Positions 14,211 through 60,094 of a DNA stretch of 60,094 nucleotides are shown here, piece after piece. The translations under genes and the position numbers were made by a program. The stretch is from the sequence record PZ445424.1, one strand, 5' to 3'. Numbering within the stretch: the stretch's first letter is position 1; every line of letters begins with the position of its first letter. The stretch comes from a phage. A model generated the notes under the pieces. That model ran no database searches, was not told where the DNA came from, and saw nothing but the letters and a program-made list of their open reading frames with translations.

Positions 14211-14619
14211 GTTGCCAGGCTGGCAGACACGTTTATTAACCACAGTAAAGGAGTTGTCATCGACTCCTTTTTCTTGGGGTGAAAATGATTGCTGCACCTT
14301 CGCGGCAAAATGTGTTGATGCGCAATACGGAACAAATATCTACGAACAAGTCGCTGGAAAATATAGTACAGAGCTTGGAAGTAAAAAGTTCACTATTGAA
14401 AGAGTTGGAACCGCTTACCTTCCATTGTTATTGGATACATATCTGAGCGAACGCGTTGACAAGAACTATGCGCAAAGGGGCGATGTGGTTACATTTGAGG
14501 GAGCATTGGGCTTAACTGCTGGCATATTATGGACTGGATATGTATGGGCTATGGGTCCGAACGGTGTGGAAACATTCCCGCTTAATAAGATCAAAATCAC
14601 GGATATTTGGAGGGTCTAA
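14185..14619 (+). CDS. Tail assembly protein K-like (NlpC/P60-like domain)
   Basis: Start refined to ATG at 14185 (GGGGAG RBS 7 nt upstream); ENDCCTF and QRGDVV motifs resemble the C-terminal domain of lambda gpK. Confidence 0.5.
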   Translation: MRQGSPMSKLPGWQTRLLTTVKELSSTPFSWGENDCCTFAAKCVDAQYGTNIYEQVAGKYSTELGSKKFTIERVGTAYLPLLLDTYLSERVDKNYAQRGDVVTFEGALGLTAGILWTGYVWAMGPNGVETFPLNKIKITDIWRV

Positions 14620-17600
14620 TGCCACCAGCAATAATTGGAGCAGCAATAGCTTTAGGTGCGTCGGCTGCTGCTGCGGCTAGTATTATTTCAGCAACTACTG
14701 CTCTCGTTATCGGTATTGCTGCAACTGCGGCAGGTGCTCTTTTAACTAAGACACCAAATATGAACTTTGATGCTTACAAGGGGCAGCAAGAGCGTAAACA
14801 GGTTCTGCGTGCGGCTACAGCGTCACGTTCTGTTGTATATGGCACGACCGTAGCGTCCGGACTATTAGCATTTGCGGAGGAAGAAGCTGGAGATCAAGAT
14901 GAAGGTGAATGGATGCATCTTGTTGTTGTTCTTGCTAGTCATAAATTGGAAGGTATTGAAACGATTTGGTTGGGTGATGACGGAATCGATTGGTTTGGTG
15001 AAAACGCTACTTGGGAGTTTCATAACGACCGTCAGACTGTTGACCCATTCATGTTAAGACATTGTCCTTCCTGGAAGGAGGATATGATTGGCAAGGGTAT
15101 TGCATGGCTACGTTTAAGCTTAAAGTTTGATGCTGAAAAATTCCCATCAGGTTTGCCAAACGTCAAGGTGTTGAAAAAGGGACGTAGAGTCTATGACCCA
15201 CGTTCCGGTCAAACTGTCTTTAGCGATAATGCTGCTCTTGTTATTCTTGATTATTTCCGCACGTATTTAAAGCGCAAGGACGAGAATATTAACTGGGACC
15301 AATTCAAGGAAGCTGCTAACATCTGCGATGAGTTTGTTACTAACGCAGATGGCACTACGGAAAGACGCTACCGCATTAACGGTGAGTTTGAAGTGGATGA
15401 AGCACCTGCCAAAATCCTTGATGCTATGCTTGAAGCTTGCGGCGGGGAGCTTACCTATATTGGTGGTAAACACGGTCTGTTAGTTGGTGCTTATTACGGT
15501 CCAGCTACCATGACTCTGGATGAAAGCTGCATTGCTGGGGACATTAAGATTATCCCTGAGACATCTTATAAAGAACGCACCAATACCATTACAGGTACAT
15601 TTGTTGACCCGAAGCAAACATACGCTGAAGCAGATTTTCCTCCAGTTGTGGTTAAGGAATGGGTGGAAAAAGATGGAGGCGAAATAACGCAAGACATGGA
15701 TTTCCGCTTCGTTACAAGTGAATATCAAGCGCAACGGCTCGCTAATATTATTTTACGTCGTAAGCGTGTTGGTCGAACAATTGAAGTGCCGTGTAACATG
15801 AAGGGGTATAAATTCCGCCCGGGCATGTATGTCAACGTGGCAATTTCAAATATTGGAATGAAAAATGTTGAGATGCGCGTCACTAAATGGTCATTTGATC
15901 CTAAAGGTGGGATTAATCTTGTCCTTCGTCAAGACTTCCTGGAAATGTGGGACGACGCTATTGGTAAACCAATGGAGCGCCCGGATCTGGTAGACCTTCC
16001 GTCTGGTGCTATTGCTCAACCGCAAAACCTTCAGTATCAGGTATTGCAGATTAGCGATGTTGTGCAGGGTGTTTTAACGTGGAGCAATATTGGACAGGTA
16101 GCGTATAACCGCGTAGCCGTGCGACAGGGAGGTACAACGGTTTGGACCGCACAAGTCCCTGGCCAAAATGTTCGCGTTACTGGGTTGCTGCGTGGCGCGT
16201 ATACAGCGCATGTTCAAGCGGTAGCTTATAGCGGAGCAATATCGCCGGAAGCATATCTGGAATTCAATATTCAAGCACCACCTCCGCCAACTTCTATTGA
16301 AGTGCAACAGGGTTACTTTGCTATAAGTTTGATCCCAAAATCTGCGGATATTGCAAACGTTAGCACGCAATATGATTTCTGGACGTCCGGTGAAACAAGA
16401 TTGTCTTCCGTATCTACGGATATTGTGGAACGAGAAGCAACTCGTAAAGGTATGGGTACAACATGGACTTCAGAAGGCTTGAAGAATGACCACACTTATT
16501 ACTGGTATGTTCGAACCATCAACGCTTTTGGATCGTCTGCATTTGTAGAGGTTGCTGCATTGTGCTTCACAACCGCTACAGACCTGATGCCGCAGATTGA
16601 CGCAGAGTTCAAAAATACGGAAACGTTTAAAGAGCTCACTGCTGAGATTTCAGGTGTCAAAGATGGCGTTACCCAACTCAGTCAAACTGTAGTAGATACA
16701 GAAAAGCGTTTAAGCCAAAGTGTTAGCAACGTTCAGCAGAGCGTTATTACTTTGGACGGTGTTGTTCAGGATCAAGGTGTTACCATCAATGAACAAGGAC
16801 AGCTCATTGATGCACAGGGTAAATTGATTGATACTCAAGGTAAGACCATTGAGACGGTTAGCGCAACTGTACAGGAGACAAGTAAAGCGATTGTAGATCT
16901 GGAAGGTAATGTTAACGCTCAATGGGGTGCTAAGGTACAGGTTGACAGTAAAGGACAAAAATACGTTGCTGGTATCCAGTTGGGTATGGAAGGGTCTGGT
17001 GGTGCTGTCCAATCTTACTTCATGGTAAGTGCCAACAACTTTGCAATTTATAACCCGACAAATAGCGTAGCAGAATTGGCATTTGCTGTTAAGAACGGTC
17101 AAGTGTTCATGAAGGCTGCGTTTATTGAAAACGGTACGATTGATAGCGCTAAAATTTCAAACCAGATTCAGTCAACAAACTACGCTAGCAATAGCGCGGG
17201 TTGGATGATTAACAAGAATGGTAGTGCTCAGTTTAACAACGTAACGATAAGAGGTACTGTATACGCTAGCAACGGGTCTTTCACGGGTACAGTCAACGCC
17301 ACAAGCGGTAAATTCAAGGGTACTGTGGAAGCTACCAGTTTTGTGGGTGATGTTGCGAATATGTGTGTCATTGCTGAGTCTGCAATACCAAACACACAAA
17401 CTACAAGTTCAAGAACCTGGACAAAAACTTTCAAAGACTCATCTGGTTCAACATTATCTAAAGACTTTGTGTTGCTATTAAGTTATAGTTTAACTGCATA
17501 TACATCAAGTCAAGCAAGTCGTATAATTGTGACTGCTAACATAGGGGGGACATCAGTTACAAGGAGGATTGAGCGAGCTGCTAATGGTTCCGCCATGGAT

Positions 17601-17741
17601 GTAACCATACCTTTAGCAGTGAAAGGAAAGACAGCGTCGAGCGTAACAATAAGCGTTAAGGAGGAATATACGAATGTCTATGGGAGTTGCTTGCGTCCGT
17701 CTGTAATATTAATGACTCGCGGAACTGGTAGTTGGTCGTAA
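14619..17741 (+). CDS. Tail tip / host specificity protein, lambda gpJ-like
   Basis: Start refined to ATG 14619 (GGAGGG RBS, TAATG overlap). Clear similarity to lambda J central region (GYFAISLIP, YYWYVRTINAFGSSAFVEV, KYVAGIQLGMEG); hydrophobic Ala-rich N-terminus. Confidence 0.85.
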   Translation: MPPAIIGAAIALGASAAAAASIISATTALVIGIAATAAGALLTKTPNMNFDAYKGQQERKQVLRAATASRSVVYGTTVASGLLAFAEEEAGDQDEGEWMHLVVVLASHKLEGIETIWLGDDGIDWFGENATWEFHNDRQTVDPFMLRHCPSWKEDMIGKGIAWLRLSLKFDAEKFPSGLPNVKVLKKGRRVYDPRSGQTVFSDNAALVILDYFRTYLKRKDENINWDQFKEAANICDEFVTNADGTTERRYRINGEFEVDEAPAKILDAMLEACGGELTYIGGKHGLLVGAYYGPATMTLDESCIAGDIKIIPETSYKERTNTITGTFVDPKQTYAEADFPPVVVKEWVEKDGGEITQDMDFRFVTSEYQAQRLANIILRRKRVGRTIEVPCNMKGYKFRPGMYVNVAISNIGMKNVEMRVTKWSFDPKGGINLVLRQDFLEMWDDAIGKPMERPDLVDLPSGAIAQPQNLQYQVLQISDVVQGVLTWSNIGQVAYNRVAVRQGGTTVWTAQVPGQNVRVTGLLRGAYTAHVQAVAYSGAISPEAYLEFNIQAPPPPTSIEVQQGYFAISLIPKSADIANVSTQYDFWTSGETRLSSVSTDIVEREATRKGMGTTWTSEGLKNDHTYYWYVRTINAFGSSAFVEVAALCFTTATDLMPQIDAEFKNTETFKELTAEISGVKDGVTQLSQTVVDTEKRLSQSVSNVQQSVITLDGVVQDQGVTINEQGQLIDAQGKLIDTQGKTIETVSATVQETSKAIVDLEGNVNAQWGAKVQVDSKGQKYVAGIQLGMEGSGGAVQSYFMVSANNFAIYNPTNSVAELAFAVKNGQVFMKAAFIENGTIDSAKISNQIQSTNYASNSAGWMINKNGSAQFNNVTIRGTVYASNGSFTGTVNATSGKFKGTVEATSFVGDVANMCVIAESAIPNTQTTSSRTWTKTFKDSSGSTLSKDFVLLLSYSLTAYTSSQASRIIVTANIGGTSVTRRIERAANGSAMDVTIPLAVKGKTASSVTISVKEEYTNVYGSCLRPSVILMTRGTGSWS

Positions 17742-17747
17742 TAAATA

Positions 17748-17777
17748 ATTAACCCCTCAAACGAGGGGTTAATTTTC
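17748..17777. terminator. Bidirectional intrinsic terminator between J-like gene (+) and lipoprotein gene (-)
   Basis: AACCCCTC-AAAC-GAGGGGTT hairpin flanked by T-rich tracts on both strands. Confidence 0.6.
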
Positions 17778-18009
17778 AATAATCAATCACACAGTTTGAA
17801 GGTGAACCAATTCTTCGGTATTCATGATCAATCTCATGGCACCATTGTCCAGTCATTGGAAGCTTTTCGGTATCATAAATTAAAGAACCGTTACCATCAC
17901 GATCTAACGGTTTTGGAATTACGCCGGAATTAGGTTTACCAGTATTTAAACCGTTACCACATGCAGTGAGGGATAAAGTTAATGCCAGCATAATTAAAGC
18001 GCGTTTCAT
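17776..18009 (-). CDS. Small lipoprotein, candidate receptor-blocking superinfection exclusion protein (Cor/Llp-like)
   Basis: 77 aa; signal peptide with lipobox LTAC-G (MKRALIMLALTLSLTACGNG); strong RBS AAGGAGG; antisense between host-specificity gene and tail fiber gene. Confidence 0.55.
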   Translation of the reverse strand: MKRALIMLALTLSLTACGNGLNTGKPNSGVIPKPLDRDGNGSLIYDTEKLPMTGQWCHEIDHEYRRIGSPSNCVIDY

Positions 18010-18045
18010 TGGGCCTCCTTTGTGTTGTTGTCAAGGTTCAATTCT

Positions 18046-18073
18046 AATATACTTGTTGTGTTGAGTAAGTCAA
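18046..18073 (-). promoter_or_regulatory. Sigma70-like promoter for lipoprotein gene (TTGACT-16 nt-TATATT on - strand)
   Basis: Read on reverse complement: -35 TTGACT (18068-18073), 16-nt spacer, -10 TATATT (18046-18051), ~30 nt upstream of the RBS. Confidence 0.45.
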
Positions 18074-18091
18074 ATAAATGTGGGAGATATT

Positions 18092-21000
18092 ATGGCAACT
18101 CGTTTACGTGGTACTTTAGTTGATGGTTTAAATAAACCAATTGTCAACGCTACAGTTGCGCTTTTAGCAAAAGGGAATAGCTTATTGGTATTATCAGGCA
18201 GTGAAGCTATCTTTAAAACAAGCGCAACCGGAACATATGATATTACAGTCCAAACAGGCTATTACAAGGTTATTATCGGTCCGCAAGGTAGCGAGCCTTA
18301 TAAAGCTGGTGAAATTGCTATTTACGCGGACAGTAAAGAAGGTACGCTCAATAACTATTTAACTTCCTGGGCACCGGAAGAGCTAACTCCGGAAGTCATT
18401 GCTCAGGTAAAAGATTTGGTTGCACAAGCTGAGACAGCTAAAAATGCTTCTGCTGCATCTGCAACTAAATCCGAGCAGGAACGCGTTAAAGCAGAGACTG
18501 CGGCTCAGAATGCTGTAAACACTGCTAACGGTATGAAAGCTTCTATTGGTTTGACTACTGCACCTAGACATGTTCCTGATATCACAGTAGAACCTACAGC
18601 ATTCTTAGGTTTCATACGAATCGTACGATCTACCACAGTTGGTTATCCGGATATAGCTTCATCAGAAAACGTATTGGCTGGTTTTGTCACTGCTATGGAC
18701 GGAACCCCTGGATATGTTGGGGTATTTGTTGGCGACTTCACCGGAACAGTATATACCTATCGTTGGACAAAGAACGTCGGCGCGGTGTGGTGGAAGCAAG
18801 TTAATTATTCTACTGTAAACAGATACTCCCAGCTTAACGCAGAGACTAATTTTACAAACCAATTAGGTAATGCGAAAGTCCTTATTGATAATAATAAAGT
18901 TTGGGGTGCTTATGATAACGACAATAAACGCTATATACCCCTTGCAATAGCTCAGGGTGGTACTGGAGCGGTGAATGTTAATGATGCTTTGGAAAACTTT
19001 GGGTTAGGTCGTAACTCCGCGCCACGTTTCAAACATCTTGATCTGGACAATGCATCAAATTCTACACAAGCCGCTTCTGGGATTCTAAACGGCTATCTCC
19101 GTGATTCTAGCGGTGTGCAAAGAACTAAGCATAGATTATATTCAGAAATTAAAAGCGACGGCAAAGCGTGGCTAACCATGCAAATCTATTCTGATGAATC
19201 CACACAGAAGACTTTAGGTTATAACATTGACGGCGATTTCCAAATCGTACGTAATTTTATCGGGCAGTCCTTACAATTATCGGATTTAACCACAACTCAT
19301 AAAAATCTACAAATTGATAGATTCAAGCAGTTGTCTTCTGGCACAAGGGTCTACGGAGGTCCAGCCGATGAGCGATATTTTGAAGTTCATACTGGAGCAT
19401 GGGGTGTTTATAACGTAACAGAAAATAAATGGATACCTTTAGCTATATCACAAGGCGGGACTGGCGCTGTTACAGTTGCAGACGCCAAAAAGAACCTTTT
19501 AATCCCCGACGGTGGACTTGATACAGCCACCCGTGTGGATAAACCTGCTGGGGCAGAAGATAATAAATACTATCCAATTATTATCAGCCAACCTAGCGGT
19601 TATGATGGTAGTTACCTAACAGAGATTGAAATGACTACCCCTTCGCGGAGTGCTTCACAAAGTCCTAACTGTAACATTTTAAGAGCTTGGGTTCGAAGTG
19701 CTGGATGGGGCGATAAAGGAACTGTTGGCTTTGCTAATTTCTTTGCTTATGACAGTAAAGAGGTTGCAATTTTATGTATACGTGGTACGACTAAAGGTCA
19801 ATACCCTCATAACGCTGTATATGTGAAGGGTGACGCTTTTCCTGTTTATATTAGAAAAACAGTTGGATCGCGTATCACTGTTCCTACTGCGGATTGGTCT
19901 GCGGATGCAAGCGCATCCGACAAATGTATTTATAAATGGGGAATTACCGGTGATCAAGATGGCGTAGGTGACGAATATGGATGCAGAAATATACTAGACT
20001 TTGTCAAAGGCTTAAATGGATTTTACTGCAATGATTATTTCCGTGATGCTGGAGGAAATGCTTATCTTAAAGACGGTATGAACTACGGCGGGGATATAAA
20101 ATTACAAGTCCGTAAATTGGAAATAAATGGTAATCTTACAGCAGGAAACGCTATAACGGCTTTTGGTCCTACTGTAGCAAATAATACATTTGTATCACAG
20201 TTAACGAATGCGGATGCTAGCCAAGCATTACATCAAAGCGAGTTTAGAGCCGGGGAAAGCGGTGGGCAAATTGTTGTTCGAGATATGACCTCATCTGCTA
20301 ATCATAAATTCTTTAACTTTAATCTGGACGGGAGCTTTAGTCCTCCAAATGGTTTGTTAAGCTCCACTGGTGTAGATTGGAACAGTCAAATTAATACCGT
20401 CAATAAGTTCTATGGAATTGCTGGACAAGTCAACTCAGCAGAAAACAATGTTGTTTACGGGGGCATTCACGTAGGTTTTAGCGGTAATTATGCATTTCAA
20501 CTAGCTGGTAGGAATAACAAAGCAAGTTTTCGTACATTTGAAGCAGGAACTCCTGGGCCTTGGATGCGTCTTATCACGGATCAGTATGCAGACTTCAAAG
20601 TACCAATTTTTGCTAACAAGAATGGTGAAGCTATAACCATTAAATCGACAGTAGCTGACAACTCTGAATCTGGCTATATTGCTGGGAGAAATAATGCCAA
20701 TGCCCGTTTATGGTATATAGGAAAATCCGGTCCTCAAGAAACTGTGGTTATCCGTAACGATATGAACGGAAACCAAATACTGTTAAGGGATGGTGCTGGC
20801 GATATAAGCTTGGATACAAAGGACGGGAACAAGGTTGTATACGCAAACGCGTCGAACTTTAGACTTGTTAATAGTAATGGAAAATATACAAGATTAGTAA
20901 CATCCGGAACTTCAACTCATGCAATTAGCATGGATAATTGGGGTACAACTACAAGACCAACTGTATTTGAATGTAAGTACGAAGATCCTTCTACTTCTGC

Positions 21001-21478
21001 TAACGTTAGTTGGATATTCTACGGTCAAGTAAATACCGATGGATCTAGAGTATTTCAAGTTAATGGTTCCGTTAACTGTGTAACTTTAAATCAAAGTTCC
21101 GACCGTGATCTTAAAGACAATATTAAACCAATCAAAGACGCAACAAATGCTTTGCGGAAAATGAATGGTTATACATACACACTCAAAGAGGACGGCTTAC
21201 CCTATGCTGGTGTTATTGCTCAGGAAGTGATGGAAGCTTTACCTGAAGCTGTTAGCAGCTTCACAAAACACGAGTATATGGAAGGTCAAGATGAAGACGG
21301 TAATGATACCAGATATGATTTTGGTAAGCGATATCTTAGCGTCGACTACTCCGCAGTAACTGGACTTCTTGTTCAGGTCTGCCGTGAAGCGGATGATAGG
21401 ATTAGTAAACTTGAAACTGAAGTTGAGGAACTCAAAAAGTTAGTTGCAACACTTGTTAATAAAGAACCTCTACCATAA
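18092..21478 (+). CDS. Tail fiber protein with C-terminal intramolecular chaperone (peptidase S74-like) domain
   Basis: Start refined to ATG 18092. C-terminus (DRDLKDNIKPIKDATNALRKMNGYTYTLKEDG...GVIAQEV) matches the S74 autoproteolytic chaperone motif; internal repeat QGGTGAV occurs twice. Confidence 0.8.
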   Translation: MATRLRGTLVDGLNKPIVNATVALLAKGNSLLVLSGSEAIFKTSATGTYDITVQTGYYKVIIGPQGSEPYKAGEIAIYADSKEGTLNNYLTSWAPEELTPEVIAQVKDLVAQAETAKNASAASATKSEQERVKAETAAQNAVNTANGMKASIGLTTAPRHVPDITVEPTAFLGFIRIVRSTTVGYPDIASSENVLAGFVTAMDGTPGYVGVFVGDFTGTVYTYRWTKNVGAVWWKQVNYSTVNRYSQLNAETNFTNQLGNAKVLIDNNKVWGAYDNDNKRYIPLAIAQGGTGAVNVNDALENFGLGRNSAPRFKHLDLDNASNSTQAASGILNGYLRDSSGVQRTKHRLYSEIKSDGKAWLTMQIYSDESTQKTLGYNIDGDFQIVRNFIGQSLQLSDLTTTHKNLQIDRFKQLSSGTRVYGGPADERYFEVHTGAWGVYNVTENKWIPLAISQGGTGAVTVADAKKNLLIPDGGLDTATRVDKPAGAEDNKYYPIIISQPSGYDGSYLTEIEMTTPSRSASQSPNCNILRAWVRSAGWGDKGTVGFANFFAYDSKEVAILCIRGTTKGQYPHNAVYVKGDAFPVYIRKTVGSRITVPTADWSADASASDKCIYKWGITGDQDGVGDEYGCRNILDFVKGLNGFYCNDYFRDAGGNAYLKDGMNYGGDIKLQVRKLEINGNLTAGNAITAFGPTVANNTFVSQLTNADASQALHQSEFRAGESGGQIVVRDMTSSANHKFFNFNLDGSFSPPNGLLSSTGVDWNSQINTVNKFYGIAGQVNSAENNVVYGGIHVGFSGNYAFQLAGRNNKASFRTFEAGTPGPWMRLITDQYADFKVPIFANKNGEAITIKSTVADNSESGYIAGRNNANARLWYIGKSGPQETVVIRNDMNGNQILLRDGAGDISLDTKDGNKVVYANASNFRLVNSNGKYTRLVTSGTSTHAISMDNWGTTTRPTVFECKYEDPSTSANVSWIFYGQVNTDGSRVFQVNGSVNCVTLNQSSDRDLKDNIKPIKDATNALRKMNGYTYTLKEDGLPYAGVIAQEVMEALPEAVSSFTKHEYMEGQDEDGNDTRYDFGKRYLSVDYSAVTGLLVQVCREADDRISKLETEVEELKKLVATLVNKEPLP

Positions 21479-21521: not shown

Positions 21522-21649
21522 TGGCTGTCAATCCTAATTTACAAAATCTTTACATATGGATCATTGTAAAAACCATGTTAAGGGGTATGCTTTACTTCGT
21601 AACCAGTTGGTTACATCCGCTTAACAAATCCATATATGGAGATTTTCCT

Positions 21650-21934
21650 ATGTCTGACATGACTCTTTTACCTACTAATCTCGGTGGCGACGGTTTCGGT
21701 GGTGAAGCTGGTGCGGCTGGTATCGGTGGCGCGATCGGTGGCTTAATTGGTTCCTGGATCGGTAATGGTTGGGGTGGCAATGGTGGTTGGGGTGGTCGCG
21801 GTAACTTTGCCGGCCCGGTGGAAGTGCAAGCTTCTGTTGACACCAACGCAATTCTGCAAGCTATCAACAACGGTACTCTTCAGACCATTCAGGGGCAGAA
21901 CGGTACTAACCTGACTGTTGGATTATGGGAGTGA
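21650..21934 (+). CDS. Glycine-rich small protein (membrane-active peptide-like)
   Basis: Start refined to ATG 21650 (GGAG RBS). Gly-zipper tract GGDGFGGEAGAAGIGGAIGGLIGSWIGNGWGGNGGWGG. Confidence 0.4.
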   Translation: MSDMTLLPTNLGGDGFGGEAGAAGIGGAIGGLIGSWIGNGWGGNGGWGGRGNFAGPVEVQASVDTNAILQAINNGTLQTIQGQNGTNLTVGLWE

Positions 21935-22158
21935 TACCGCCTACGCCGGGCACTATCGAACGACCCGTGAATGTGATGTATGTCGGCTTCCACCAGTTTA
22001 AAATCACGATCGCTCCAAACTCCATTAGTCAGTCAGATCTTGATCGTATGCACGTTTACGTCAGCGATGGTACAGACTTTGCAGGTGATTTTATTAATAA
22101 GTTTCTTGGCGTGCAACCGGAGCAACCTGTAGAAGCCCGCGAACATATTAGTCCGTGA
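21925..22158 (+). CDS. Hypothetical protein
   Basis: 77 aa ORF overlapping end of preceding gene; weak RBS; start uncertain. Confidence 0.25.
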   Translation: MGVIPPTPGTIERPVNVMYVGFHQFKITIAPNSISQSDLDRMHVYVSDGTDFAGDFINKFLGVQPEQPVEAREHISP

Positions 22159-58574: not shown

Positions 58575-58919
58575 ATGTTCAATTCACCCAACGAACATTG
58601 GGCAGTTCTAGCGGGGTTTGCGTTTATCTCCCTCATTGGGGGAGCTCTCGGTTATGTCATGCGTACAATAGACGCTGGTAAGAAAGTACGGGCAAGCATT
58701 GCATTTCTTGAAGGCTTATCCGCCGCTTTCTTTGGCGTTATAATGTATGCGATCTACAGGGAGTTTAACATCAGCCTTTGGTTCGCTTTTGGCCTTGCTG
58801 GCCTATTTGCTTGGGCAGGTTCACGTGCTACGCTAAAAGCCCTAACGTCGCTTATAGCTTCACGGACAGGGATCAAACTCGATTCAGGGGACTGCAAACA
58901 TGAAAACGATTCTAAATAA
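58575..58919 (+). CDS. Holin (3 TM segments)
   Basis: 114 aa; three hydrophobic helices and charged C-terminus; located between putative endolysin and spanin genes. Confidence 0.55.
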   Translation: MFNSPNEHWAVLAGFAFISLIGGALGYVMRTIDAGKKVRASIAFLEGLSAAFFGVIMYAIYREFNISLWFAFGLAGLFAWAGSRATLKALTSLIASRTGIKLDSGDCKHENDSK

Positions 58920-59376
58920 CTTCTTCGGTTTTATAAAAACTAAACCGCGTCTGTTTATCGAGTATTTGATGATCGGCGCGGTTGTGTTTTTATGCGGGGT
59001 GGCTGCTTACTTGTGGTCACAGAACGAGCTCAGCAAAACTAATTTAAATCATGCTGAGCAAAGACTAACCGTTGTAGAACAGGACAATGCAAAGCTGGGC
59101 GAGGCTGTTGTATTTCTTGCTTCCCAACGGGAGAAGGATACTGAATCATATCGAAAATTGGCTTCAGCAATTGAAAGTGAGCAACATAACCACAGGTTGC
59201 TTCAGGACAAATTAAAAGCACTGGAGAAAAGCAATGCCGACGTCAAAGCTTATCTTAATGAGCGTGTTCCTGATGATTTGCGCAGGCTGCTCGACGGAGA
59301 TACAACCTCCACCACCGCCGCAGATAGTGAAGATAAAACTTCCAGCTCATCTGTTGGTAGAATGTCGGGAAGTTGA
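58900..59376 (+). CDS. Inner-membrane spanin (Rz-like)
   Basis: 158 aa; N-terminal TM helix (LMIGAVVFLCGVAAYLW) followed by coiled-coil-like periplasmic domain; overlapped by a lipoprotein ORF in another frame. Confidence 0.6.
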   Translation: MKTILNNFFGFIKTKPRLFIEYLMIGAVVFLCGVAAYLWSQNELSKTNLNHAEQRLTVVEQDNAKLGEAVVFLASQREKDTESYRKLASAIESEQHNHRLLQDKLKALEKSNADVKAYLNERVPDDLRRLLDGDTTSTTAADSEDKTSSSSVGRMSGS

Positions 59377-59539
59377 TAAATATCCTTTGGTTTATACAAG
59401 GGATATTATCCAACGTTTGCAGGATACAGAAACAGCTCTGACTGAATGTAAACTGAGGGTTAAGGAAATCATACGCTATGAAGCTGAAAATGTTTCGCTT
59501 GATTTTGTAGGATCAAGCAATTATATTCAGCCTAAATAG
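59234..59539 (+). CDS. Outer-membrane spanin lipoprotein (Rz1-like)
   Basis: 101 aa in +1 frame, starting inside the i-spanin gene and extending past its stop; signal peptide with lipobox-like ICAG-C followed by PPPPP tract. Confidence 0.5.
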   Translation: MPTSKLILMSVFLMICAGCSTEIQPPPPPQIVKIKLPAHLLVECREVDKYPLVYTRDIIQRLQDTETALTECKLRVKEIIRYEAENVSLDFVGSSNYIQPK

Positions 59540-59559
59540 CAATAAGAAAGGGGGCTTCC

Positions 59560-60094
59560 ATGAACGGGGCAAGTCAAGAGCAATATGATCGTGACTGGAC
59601 GAATTACATCCAGTATGCAAATAGCTTGTCCGCTGACGAGATGGCAATACGTGACAAAGTTGTTGCTGAGTATATGTTCGACTACAATTGGACTAACGCT
59701 TGCATGAGATGCGGGTTCAATGCTATGTTTGCACAGGAGCTTGGCCAACGCTTTGCCACGGACTGTTACGTTCGATGGAAGCTCAAGGAGATTGAAAGAT
59801 CCCGTGTTCAACGTACTTCTGAGCAAGCTAACATTGAAGCAGACCTAGAGCGTCAGCATATCATTGAAGCATTAAAACGTGAAGCTCATTATACAGGACC
59901 GGGATCTTCTCAAGCTGCTAGAGTAGCCGCATTGGGCAAGCTTGCACAAATTTATGATTTGGATGCTCCCAAGAAGGCTAAAATTGATGTTACTAACAGA
60001 GGCGGCGTAATGATAGTCCCTGCTGTAGCAAATATTGACGAATGGGAAAAAACTGCATCCGAGTCTCAACAACTGCTAGTTAAAGAGACTGAAG
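59560..60094 (+). CDS. Terminase small subunit (putative), 3' end beyond window
   Basis: Open frame from ATG 59560 (RBS AAGGGGG) to the window end with no stop; absent from ORF track because truncated; would sit directly upstream of terminase large subunit on a circular map. Confidence 0.45.
   Translation, partial: MNGASQEQYDRDWTNYIQYANSLSADEMAIRDKVVAEYMFDYNWTNACMRCGFNAMFAQELGQRFATDCYVRWKLKEIERSRVQRTSEQANIEADLERQHIIEALKREAHYTGPGSSQAARVAALGKLAQIYDLDAPKKAKIDVTNRGGVMIVPAVANIDEWEKTASESQQLLVKETE

What the first reader, a model, noticed from the sequence alone, without database searches (positions are those of the whole stretch)
17748..18073. Antisense lipoprotein gene with its own promoter and terminator between the host-specificity and tail-fiber genes: Cor/Llp-like superinfection exclusion candidate
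A 77-aa ORF with a signal peptide and lipobox (LTAC) is on the opposite strand in the middle of the + strand tail module. It has a strong RBS, a near-consensus sigma70 promoter (TTGACT-16-TATATT) and a bidirectional terminator. Small lipoproteins placed next to receptor-binding genes (T5 Llp, Cor of T1/phi80-like phages) are known to inactivate the phage's own outer-membrane receptor.
Basis: partly seen in the sequence, partly recalled or inferred. Interest (0 to 1): 0.6.

Follow-up and report, generated by a model that had tools for sequence, protein, structure and literature searches.

The report
LamB-type phage superinfection-exclusion lipoprotein gene
A small outer-membrane lipoprotein gene sits backwards between the tail-tip and tail-fibre genes of coliphage WildeMaa; it most likely disables the phage's own receptor, the maltose porin LamB, as a tested relative suggests, and the literature had already flagged this gene for that role.

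Summary
The window is coliphage WildeMaa (Bas23, Seuratvirus). At 17776-18009 (-) lies a 77-aa prolipoprotein gene (lipobox LTA|C, Gly at +2). It has an AAGGAGG ribosome-binding site, a TTGACT-16-TATATT promoter and a two-way terminator hairpin, and it sits between the J tail-tip gene and the lateral tail-fibre gene.

The gene is real. Mature-region dN/dS is 0.02-0.08, and homologues occur in 44 phage records.

It is not a sequence relative of Cor, Llp (PHROG 1119) or Rtp45 (PF24052). It belongs to a narrow third family, PHROG 12984. One member of that family, Lpp010 of phage mEp010 (55-57% identical, same gene arrangement), has been shown to exclude LamB-dependent phages, including lambda.

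WildeMaa uses LamB. Among the 25 BASEL small siphoviruses, exactly the four LamB users carry this gene.

The best explanation is an outer-membrane lipoprotein that makes LamB unusable for phage entry. That function is inferred for this gene; the molecular mechanism is unknown.

Novelty is low. A 2022 PNAS paper already says that LamB phages such as Bas23 likely have superinfection-exclusion lipoproteins, and the homologue was tested in 2025. How a lipoprotein blocks a plug-less porin remains open.

The parts
17776..18009 (-). Prolipoprotein coding sequence (77 aa; stop codon at 17776-17778) = bas23_0021, a member of PHROG 12984
   Evidence: (E = 2e-55). Homologues in 44 phage records. Mature-region dN/dS 0.02-0.08.
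17962..18009 (-). Signal peptide, residues 1-16, ending in the lipobox L-T-A before Cys17
   Evidence: Read from the sequence. Weak matches to lipoprotein-signal models only (Pfam LptM_cons E = 0.022; NCBIfam LptM E = 0.0037). The lipobox Cys is invariant in 25 family members. This part is less constrained (dN/dS 0.2-0.45) but stays hydrophobic.
17779..17961 (-). Mature lipoprotein, 61 aa (C17-Y77). Gly at +2 predicts outer-membrane sorting. Invariant PNSGV (26-30), GQWC (54-57), N72 and C73; a C57-C73 disulfide is likely.
   Evidence: Alignment A2. The +2 rule and the disulfide are inferences from established lipoprotein biology, not tested here.
18014..18020 (-). Shine-Dalgarno sequence AAGGAGG
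   Evidence: Annotated as a ribosome-binding site in the phage Seurat record.
18046..18073 (-). Sigma-70-type promoter: TTGACT (18073-18068), 16 nt, TATATT (18051-18046)
   Evidence: 10 of 12 matches. The hexamers are conserved in Seurat, KurtStettler, Dru_SM1 and CSP1; in 9g only the -10 hexamer is kept. Activity not shown.
17747..17774 (.). Two-way intrinsic-terminator hairpin shared by the J gene (+) and the lipoprotein gene (-)
   Evidence: A hairpin is kept in all lineages with different stems. Annotated as a bidirectional terminator in Seurat and as a terminator in mEp010 and mEp013.
17365..17741 (+). Distal (C-terminal, about 125 aa) domain of the J-like tail-tip protein: the presumed LamB-binding domain that partners the lipoprotein
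   Evidence: No Pfam domain beyond J residue 887. This domain occurs in 32 phage records, all of which also carry the lipoprotein. It is absent from the J protein of the LptD phage VogelGryff. Mosaic joints lie at 17364 and 17742. The literature assigns LamB specificity to the distal GpJ domain.
14619..17741 (+). J-like tail-tip (host-specificity) gene, bas23_0020
18092..21478 (+). Lateral tail-fibre gene, bas23_0022

Best explanation
The gene encodes a small outer-membrane lipoprotein that makes the phage's terminal receptor, the maltoporin LamB, unusable for LamB-dependent phages. This is superinfection exclusion, or 'lytic conversion'.

Proposed steps, each marked as shown or inferred:
1. 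Host RNA polymerase transcribes the gene from its own sigma-70 promoter, independently of the late tail operon that runs the other way, and stops at the shared hairpin. The sequence features are shown; their activity and timing are inferred.
2. The 77-aa precursor is exported, lipidated on Cys17 and cleaved by signal peptidase II. Because residue +2 is Gly rather than Asp, the Lol pathway sends it to the inner leaflet of the outer membrane. Cys57 and Cys73 probably form a disulfide. All of this is inferred from the sequence and the established lipoprotein pathway.
3. The 61-residue mature protein engages LamB, most likely from the periplasmic side. There it could displace or obstruct the surface or channel that the J distal domain needs. 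Incoming phages would then fail to adsorb irreversibly or to eject DNA, and progeny would not be wasted on LamB-bearing debris. This is inferred from the exclusion phenotype of the homologue Lpp010 and from the solved analogues Llp-FhuA and Rtp45-LptDE.

The target appears to be the receptor rather than a particular phage protein. Lpp010 also excludes lambda, whose J tip is unrelated. The lipoprotein also stays nearly invariant while the partner J tips diverge.
For: - Homology to a tested protein: mEp010_116 (Lpp010) is 55-57% identical over the full length, in the same J -> terminator <- lipoprotein arrangement next to a tail-fibre gene. From a plasmid it excluded the LamB-dependent phages mEp010, mEp044, mEp554 and lambda (PMC11893012). 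Both proteins fall in PHROG 12984.
- Receptor correlation: WildeMaa's terminal receptor is LamB (BASEL S5 table). Of Bas01-25, only Bas21-24 use LamB, and only those four carry the gene. Its Seuratvirus relative VogelGryff (LptD) has a different cassette in the same slot.
- Spread: the gene always follows a J gene in Seuratvirus, Nonagvirus, Dhillonvirus, a Drexlerviridae phage, temperate mEp phages, and E. coli and Salmonella lambdoid prophages.
- Constraint pattern: between WildeMaa and KurtStettler the mature lipoprotein is 97% identical, yet the J distal 135 aa are only 25% identical. The lambda J tip is not alignable. This points to a conserved host target.
- Positional analogy: T1 Cor, Rtp45 and T5 Llp are all 75-77-aa prolipoproteins encoded against the direction of the receptor-binding genes.
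- The literature already proposes this for Bas23 (PMC9586334).
Against: - Nothing was tested for the WildeMaa protein itself.
- The Lpp010 evidence is spot and plaque assays only. No adsorption or binding data were found, so receptor masking is not separated from a later block.
- LamB has no plug domain and no known allostery, so the FhuA mechanism cannot simply be transferred.
- Lpp010 did not exclude LamB-dependent mEp013, which encodes an identical mature lipoprotein. Exclusion of the phage's own kind is therefore not guaranteed.
- E. coli Nissle carries a 95% identical copy and still binds lambda slowly through LamB. Whether that copy is expressed is unknown.
- AlphaFold2 gave no confident fold (pLDDT 61 and 55), so no structural support could be obtained.
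Confidence: 0.75

Rival explanations
1. The lipoprotein excludes phages after adsorption. LamB still binds the tail tip, but the lipoprotein, sitting on the periplasmic face of the outer membrane, blocks channel formation or DNA passage. This would resemble injection blockers such as Ltp of TP-J34.
For: Only plating assays exist for Lpp010. E. coli Nissle, which carries a 95% identical copy, still removes lambda from suspension in a LamB-dependent way while being fully resistant. LamB has no known allostery.
Against: The gene tracks receptor type, not tape-measure or J-core type. It excludes both lambda and mEp010, whose tail proteins differ. The mEp013 escape goes with differences in the J distal domain. 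The three solved or studied analogues all act on the receptor. Expression of the Nissle copy is unknown, and lambda removal there is very slow.
Confidence: 0.15
2. The lipoprotein is flipped to the cell surface and masks LamB from outside, instead of acting from the periplasm.
For: This was raised as a possibility for receptors that are not TonB-dependent transporters in PMC9586334. LamB's periplasmic turns are short (my own knowledge of the LamB structure).
Against: For LptD the question was settled in favour of periplasmic binding by the Rtp45-LptDE structure. Llp is also periplasmic. No surface-export signal is recognisable in the sequence.
Confidence: 0.07
3. It is a host-fitness moron unrelated to phage exclusion (for example Bor/Iss-like serum resistance), or a lysis protein (o-spanin).
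For: The Seurat record calls it an 'apparent moron'. There is a weak PHROG match to an Rz-like spanin (E = 0.0058), limited to the signal peptide.
Against: It is present in strictly virulent phages. It correlates perfectly with LamB use. A homologue has exclusion activity. WildeMaa has its own endolysin, holin, i-spanin and o-spanin cassette elsewhere.
Confidence: 0.02
4. It is a chance antisense ORF that is not expressed.
For: Promoter-like matches are no more frequent than in shuffled sequence. Longer antisense ORFs exist inside J.
Against: dN/dS is 0.02-0.08 with saturated synonymous sites. Motifs are invariant across 25 clusters. The gene occupies an intergenic gap with a ribosome-binding site and a conserved terminator. 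A homologue has a phenotype.
Confidence: 0.01

Closest known systems
Lpp010 (gp116, type-C lipoprotein) of temperate coliphage mEp010 (Front Microbiol 2025, PMC11893012)
   Same: True homologue: 55-57% identity over the full length, both in PHROG 12984. Same motifs (lipobox Cys, PNSGV, TEKLP.TGQWC, NC..Y). Same place and orientation after J with a shared terminator. The phage uses LamB.
   Different: Lpp010 comes from a temperate phage of an unrelated lineage and has a longer, different tether after the lipid Cys (AVDKEAALHNL against GNGLNTGK). Its partner J distal domain is only about 26% identical to WildeMaa's. Lpp010 is tested; the WildeMaa protein is not.
Rtp45 of phage Rtp (Pfam PF24052, PHROG 4281; PDB 9RPS)
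   Same: A 76-aa prolipoprotein encoded antisense immediately downstream of J in the same 'RBP locus' of small siphoviruses. It blocks a receptor that is not a TonB-dependent transporter by physically displacing loops from the periplasmic side.
   Different: Its target is LptDE, not LamB. It is co-transcribed with a separate receptor-binding protein gene (rtp44), whereas here the binding domain is fused to J. There is no convincing sequence relation: BLASTP E = 5.3; hhalign probability 64%, driven by the signal peptide; the cysteines do not align; no PF24052 hit.
T5 Llp (PDB 8A60, 7QJF) and T1/phi80/N15 Cor (PHROG 1119)
   Same: Precursors of 75-77 aa with a lipobox near residue 16-18 and an internal disulfide. 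They are encoded against the direction of the receptor-binding genes with their own promoter, and they inactivate the phage's own outer-membrane receptor.
   Different: Their target is FhuA, through plug-mediated 'reverse' allostery, and LamB has no plug. Similarity is confined to the signal peptide, residues 1-21. There is no PHROG 1119 hit at E <= 1 and no PDB hit at E <= 10, although Llp and Rtp45 are in that library.

Membership tests
LamB-associated phage lipoprotein family (PHROG 12984; mEpimmI 'type-C Lpp') | Full-length sequence homology to the family, including the tested member Lpp010 | tested here: met
   PHROG 12984 E = 2.4e-55 over 1-77 of 77. mEp010_116 also hits PHROG 12984 at E = 1e-26. 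tblastn to the mEp phages gives 54-55% identity, E about 1e-22. Invariant motifs in alignment A2.
LamB-associated phage lipoprotein family (PHROG 12984; mEpimmI 'type-C Lpp') | Signal peptide with a lipobox Cys and a non-Asp residue at +2 | tested here: met
   L-T-A-C17, then Gly18. The Cys is invariant in 25 sequences. No dedicated predictor such as LipoP or SignalP was available.
LamB-associated phage lipoprotein family (PHROG 12984; mEpimmI 'type-C Lpp') | Encoded antisense directly downstream of a J gene whose distal domain is of the LamB-associated type | tested here: met
   for the gene arrangement. for J distal-domain homology.
LamB-associated phage lipoprotein family (PHROG 12984; mEpimmI 'type-C Lpp') | The phage uses LamB as terminal receptor | tested here: met
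   From the literature, not from my own experiment: BASEL S5 table lists Bas21-24 as LamB users. The mEp010, mEp013, mEp044 and mEp554 phages are LamB-dependent.
LamB-associated phage lipoprotein family (PHROG 12984; mEpimmI 'type-C Lpp') | Expression excludes LamB-dependent phages | not testable with these tools
   Shown only for Lpp010. This needs a plating or adsorption experiment with bas23_0021.
Cor / Llp family (PHROG 1119) | Sequence similarity of the mature domain to Cor or Llp | tested here: not met
   hhalign of the family profile against T1 Cor and T5 Llp aligns residues 1-21 only. BLASTP aligns 1-19 only. No PHROG 1119 hit at E <= 1, while Cor and Llp hit it at 3e-30 and 1e-19. The PDB profile search misses Llp entries 8A60 and 7QJF.
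Cor / Llp family (PHROG 1119) | The partner phage uses FhuA | tested here: not met
   WildeMaa uses LamB.
Rtp45-type 'Phage_lipoprotein' family (Pfam PF24052, PHROG 4281) | Match to PF24052 or PHROG 4281, or to Rtp45 itself | tested here: not met
   No PF24052 hit at E <= 1, while Rtp45 scores 1.3e-37. BLASTP E = 5.3. hhalign probability 64% with non-aligned cysteines. PDB 9RPS_D is not found by the family profile.
o-spanin (Rz1-like) lysis lipoproteins | Located in the lysis cassette, paired with an i-spanin | tested here: not met
   The lysis cassette with annotated i- and o-spanin lies at record 58632-60070, far from this gene. The PHROG spanin match is limited to the signal peptide.

The most novel reading that the evidence does not exclude
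The lipoprotein inactivates a trimeric, plug-less sugar porin by a mechanism not yet described for any porin. One possibility is that it threads its conserved PNSGV...TEKLPMTGQWC segment from the periplasmic rim into the LamB lumen and displaces the extracellular loops that phage tips bind. This would be a receptor-level block that works against unrelated J tips, lambda included, but that variant tips can escape, as mEp013 does. The 95% identical copy in E. coli Nissle 1917 prophage 3 would then account for part of that probiotic's unexplained complete lambda resistance.
Probability: 0.3. Interest if true: 0.55.

Novelty: already known. Interest (0 to 1): 0.27.

Why it matters
The gene completes a pattern. 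Small siphoviruses carry swappable cassettes after gpJ that pair a receptor-binding module with a receptor-specific exclusion lipoprotein: PHROG 1119 for FhuA, PHROG 4281 for LptD and PHROG 12984 for LamB.

The practical uses are modest:
- The lipoprotein is a clean genomic marker for LamB tropism.
- It predicts cross-exclusion among LamB phages, lambda included, which matters when designing phage cocktails.
- It offers a small peptide ligand of LamB.

The one open scientific question is how a 6.7-kDa lipoprotein can disable a porin that has no plug and no known allostery. PNAS 2022 raised this question, and it is now solved for LptD but not for LamB.

The WildeMaa gene itself adds no new kind of system. 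This exact phage has already been cited as a LamB phage that likely has such a lipoprotein.

Tried and rejected
- **AlphaFold2, twice.** The full precursor and the mature 61 aa were each run with a 25-sequence alignment. Mean pLDDT was 61 and 55 and pTM 0.31. These models are too poor to use, so no fold search was run.
- **Sequence searches for known relatives.** The family profile against PDB sequences gave only chance hits at E > 0.6. Pfam, NCBIfam and PADLOC gave only sub-threshold lipoprotein-signal matches or nothing.
- **Exhaustive profile search of 1.84 billion representatives.** Only three true clusters were found. The fourth hit, P0031 (4467 aa), is a giant repeat protein. Nine repeats of about 4 bits each (a D.NGN...D.E..G motif) add up to the score, so I rejected it as chance.
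- **hhalign against Rtp45.** Probability 64%. Rejected as evidence of homology because the signal peptide dominates the alignment and the conserved cysteines do not align.
- **Promoter significance from the consensus match alone.** Rejected, because such matches are as frequent in shuffled sequence. I used conservation instead.
- **Literature searches.** A search on 'siphophage Seurat / CAjan / moron' returned only irrelevant papers. A search for a LamB-lipoprotein structure found none in the held library.
- **The o-spanin idea.** Rejected because the phage has a separate lysis cassette.
- **Receptor depletion.** The idea that the lipoprotein removes LamB from the membrane is disfavoured. mEp013 still infects Lpp010-expressing cells through LamB.

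Full report
**1. What is there**

The first 25 kb of the window are 100% identical to Escherichia phage WildeMaa (Bas23; MZ501112.1; Seuratvirus, Queuovirinae), with window coordinate = record coordinate - 535.

The gap between the J-like tail-tip gene (14619-17741, +) and the lateral tail-fibre gene (18092-21478, +) holds one - strand ORF, 17776-18009, of 77 aa. GenBank annotates it as 'hypothetical protein' bas23_0021.

- Signal peptide MKRALIMLALTLSL with lipobox L-T-A-C17.
- AAGGAGG 4 nt before the ATG.
- TTGACT-16-TATATT at 18073-18046 on the - strand.
- A 12-bp GC-rich hairpin at 17747-17774 that folds well on both strands: -19.8 and -19.4 kcal/mol, z = -4.8 and -6.2.

The phage Seurat record annotates the same gene as 'putative lipoprotein', with a 'bidirectional terminator ... 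apparent moron'.

**2. Is it real?**

ORF length and the promoter match alone are not above chance. Longer antisense ORFs lie inside J. Promoter-like sites are as frequent in shuffled sequence, 20 against 21.2 +/- 5.3.

The case rests on conservation:
- tblastn finds the protein in 44 phage records at 54-100% identity.
- It forms 29 clusters at 90% identity in a 5.8-billion-protein collection.
- dN/dS of the mature region is 0.02-0.08 while synonymous sites approach saturation. The signal peptide is looser (0.2-0.45) but keeps its hydrophobic character and the Cys.
- Invariant residues are C17, P26-N-S-G-V30, G41, L43, T47, E48, G54-Q-W-C57, R66, G68, N72 and C73.
- The promoter hexamers are conserved across Seuratvirus.
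- Every lineage, including the unalignable EP23, AS5 and mEp010, keeps a GC hairpin right after the stop codon with a different stem sequence. These are compensatory changes that argue for a functional terminator.

**3. What family is it?**

The protein matches PHROG 12984 ('lipoprotein') at E = 2e-55. Pfam, NCBIfam, PADLOC and PDB sequences give nothing beyond sub-threshold hits to lipoprotein signal regions.

An exhaustive profile search of 1.84 billion representative proteins finds only three true clusters. The family is therefore very narrow and restricted to phages and prophages of Enterobacteriaceae.

Direct tests against the known exclusion lipoproteins were all negative:
- T1 Cor and T5 Llp (both PHROG 1119) align only over the signal peptide.
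- Rtp45 (PF24052, PHROG 4281, PDB 9RPS) gives BLASTP E = 5.3 and an unconvincing hhalign probability of 64%.
- As positive controls, Llp (8A60, 7QJF) and Rtp45 (9RPS) are present in the PDB copy that the family profile failed to hit.

So the gene is an analogue, not a homologue, of Cor, Llp and Rtp45.

**4. Evidence for function**

(a) Homology to a tested protein.
- The hits in the temperate phages mEp010, mEp013, mEp044 and mEp554 are the 'type-C Lpp' lipoproteins of PMC11893012.
- The hit in mEp010 is mEp010_116 (gp116, Lpp010). It lies antisense after J with a shared terminator, next to a tail-fibre gene, exactly as in WildeMaa.
- Expressed from a plasmid, Lpp010 excluded the LamB-dependent phages mEp010, mEp044 and mEp554 and, unexpectedly, lambda. 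It did not exclude mEp013.

(b) Receptor correlation.
- The BASEL S5 table gives LamB as WildeMaa's terminal receptor.
- Among the 25 small siphoviruses Bas01-25, only Bas21-24 use LamB, and exactly those four carry the gene.

(c) Cassette structure.
- Against the LptD-using Seuratvirus VogelGryff, DNA similarity stops at window 17156 and resumes exactly at the fibre start, 18092. The distal J domain, terminator, lipoprotein and promoter are therefore exchanged as one block, for a short J end plus an antisense RBP-like gene.
- Against KurtStettler, 9g and CSP1 only 17365-17741, the J distal domain, is exchanged, and the lipoprotein is kept.

(d) Constraint pattern.
- Between WildeMaa and KurtStettler, both LamB users, the mature lipoprotein is 97% identical but the J distal 135 aa are only 25% identical.
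- The lambda J tip is not alignable at all, which a 2026 preprint confirms independently.

Together with the exclusion of lambda by Lpp010, this says the lipoprotein is tied to the conserved host receptor, not to a particular phage tip.

(e) Spread. The same J-then-antisense-lipoprotein arrangement recurs in Nonagvirus 9g, Dhillonvirus EP23, the Drexlerviridae phage AS5, a Salmonella lambdoid prophage and E. coli Nissle prophage 3.

**5. Mechanism and its limits**

Steps that follow from sequence and textbook lipoprotein biology:
- Sec export, then Lgt, LspA and Lnt processing at Cys17.
- Gly at +2, hence Lol transfer to the inner leaflet of the outer membrane.
- A probable C57-C73 disulfide.

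The inferred step is binding to LamB so that the J tip can no longer use it. The precedents are Llp, which acts on FhuA through periplasmic binding and reverse allostery, and Rtp45, which binds LptDE from the periplasm and physically displaces an extracellular loop. LamB has no plug and no known allostery, so a displacement or plug mode like that of Rtp45 seems more likely than allostery. This is speculation.

The mEp013 result is informative. Its mature lipoprotein is identical to Lpp010, yet the phage escapes, and its J distal domain is only about 50-70% identical to that of mEp010. LamB must therefore stay in the membrane and remain usable by some tips. That argues against receptor removal. 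It also warns that self-exclusion by the WildeMaa protein is not guaranteed.

A post-adsorption block is not excluded, because only plating assays exist. AlphaFold2 gave no usable model.

**6. Comparison with the literature and novelty**

- The 2025 BASEL paper repeats this.
- The 2025 mEp paper tested a homologue.

GenBank still calls the gene 'hypothetical', and the WildeMaa protein is untested.

As far as the held library shows, what I add is:
- The explicit link between the BASEL LamB-phage gene and the tested Lpp010.
- The one-family-per-receptor picture: PHROG 1119 for FhuA, 4281 for LptD, 12984 for LamB.
- The contrast between lipoprotein conservation and tip divergence.
- The mosaic joints.
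- The copy in E. coli Nissle.

**7. Verdict**

This is a real, well-supported LamB-type superinfection-exclusion lipoprotein gene. It is ordinary in kind and already anticipated in the literature. The only real open point is the molecular mechanism on LamB. Interest is low to moderate.

Noticed in passing
L020:5890-6123 (E. coli Nissle chromosome NZ_CP148105.1 2214452-2214685): E. coli Nissle 1917 carries a 94.8% identical copy of the lipoprotein, antisense right after the J gene of a lambdoid prophage (presumably the 'prophage 3' of Bury 2018; that identity was not checked). Bury et al. 2018 found Nissle fully lambda-resistant, with the prophage repressor explaining only about 215-fold of it, and left the remaining factor unidentified. 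This gene is an untested candidate. In all, 50 of 5426 complete E. coli genomes hold a homologue.
   Followed up: partly
L023:2855-3103 and L023:3135-7649 (phage mEp013): mEp013 encodes a mature lipoprotein identical to Lpp010, yet Lpp010 does not exclude it. Its J distal domain is only about 50-70% identical to that of mEp010. This suggests that tail tips can evolve to escape the exclusion, and that LamB stays accessible when the lipoprotein is present.
   Followed up: partly
L016:3293-3511 (E. coli metagenome contig; protein P0027): This 72-aa family member has no clean lipobox (…IALCCTAFANT…) and sits among small genes, not next to a J gene. It may be a soluble periplasmic variant or a relocated copy.
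   Followed up: no
Protein P0021 (74 aa; 29 contigs, including a 5.1-Mb E. coli chromosome): This copy matches the family up to residue 55 and then diverges. It looks like a frameshifted, probably inactive, prophage copy.
   Followed up: no
L007:4400-5490 (phage VogelGryff, Bas25, LptD user): The slot between J and the fibre gene holds an antisense 321/333-aa RBP-like gene but no lipoprotein ORF of 40 aa or more. This contrasts with the LptD phage Rtp, which has rtp45 upstream of rtp44. Not every cassette seems to carry an exclusion gene.
   Followed up: partly
window 21575-21934 and 21925-22158 (+): Two small ORFs after the lateral tail-fibre gene match only parts of longer PHROG profiles: 9288 at positions 1-88 of 234, and 8329 at positions 68-144 of 166. 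The first is glycine-rich. They may be remnants of split or truncated genes.
   Followed up: no
window 17156-18092: Sharp mosaic joints. Against KurtStettler, 9g and CSP1, only 17365-17741 (the J distal domain) is replaced. Against VogelGryff, the whole block 17157-18091 is replaced, and similarity resumes exactly at the fibre start codon.
   Followed up: yes
window 17962-18009 (-), residues 1-19: The only Pfam and NCBIfam matches are sub-threshold hits to the signal and lipobox region of LptM, the small lipoprotein that sits inside LptD. They probably reflect generic lipoprotein-signal similarity and nothing more.
   Followed up: no
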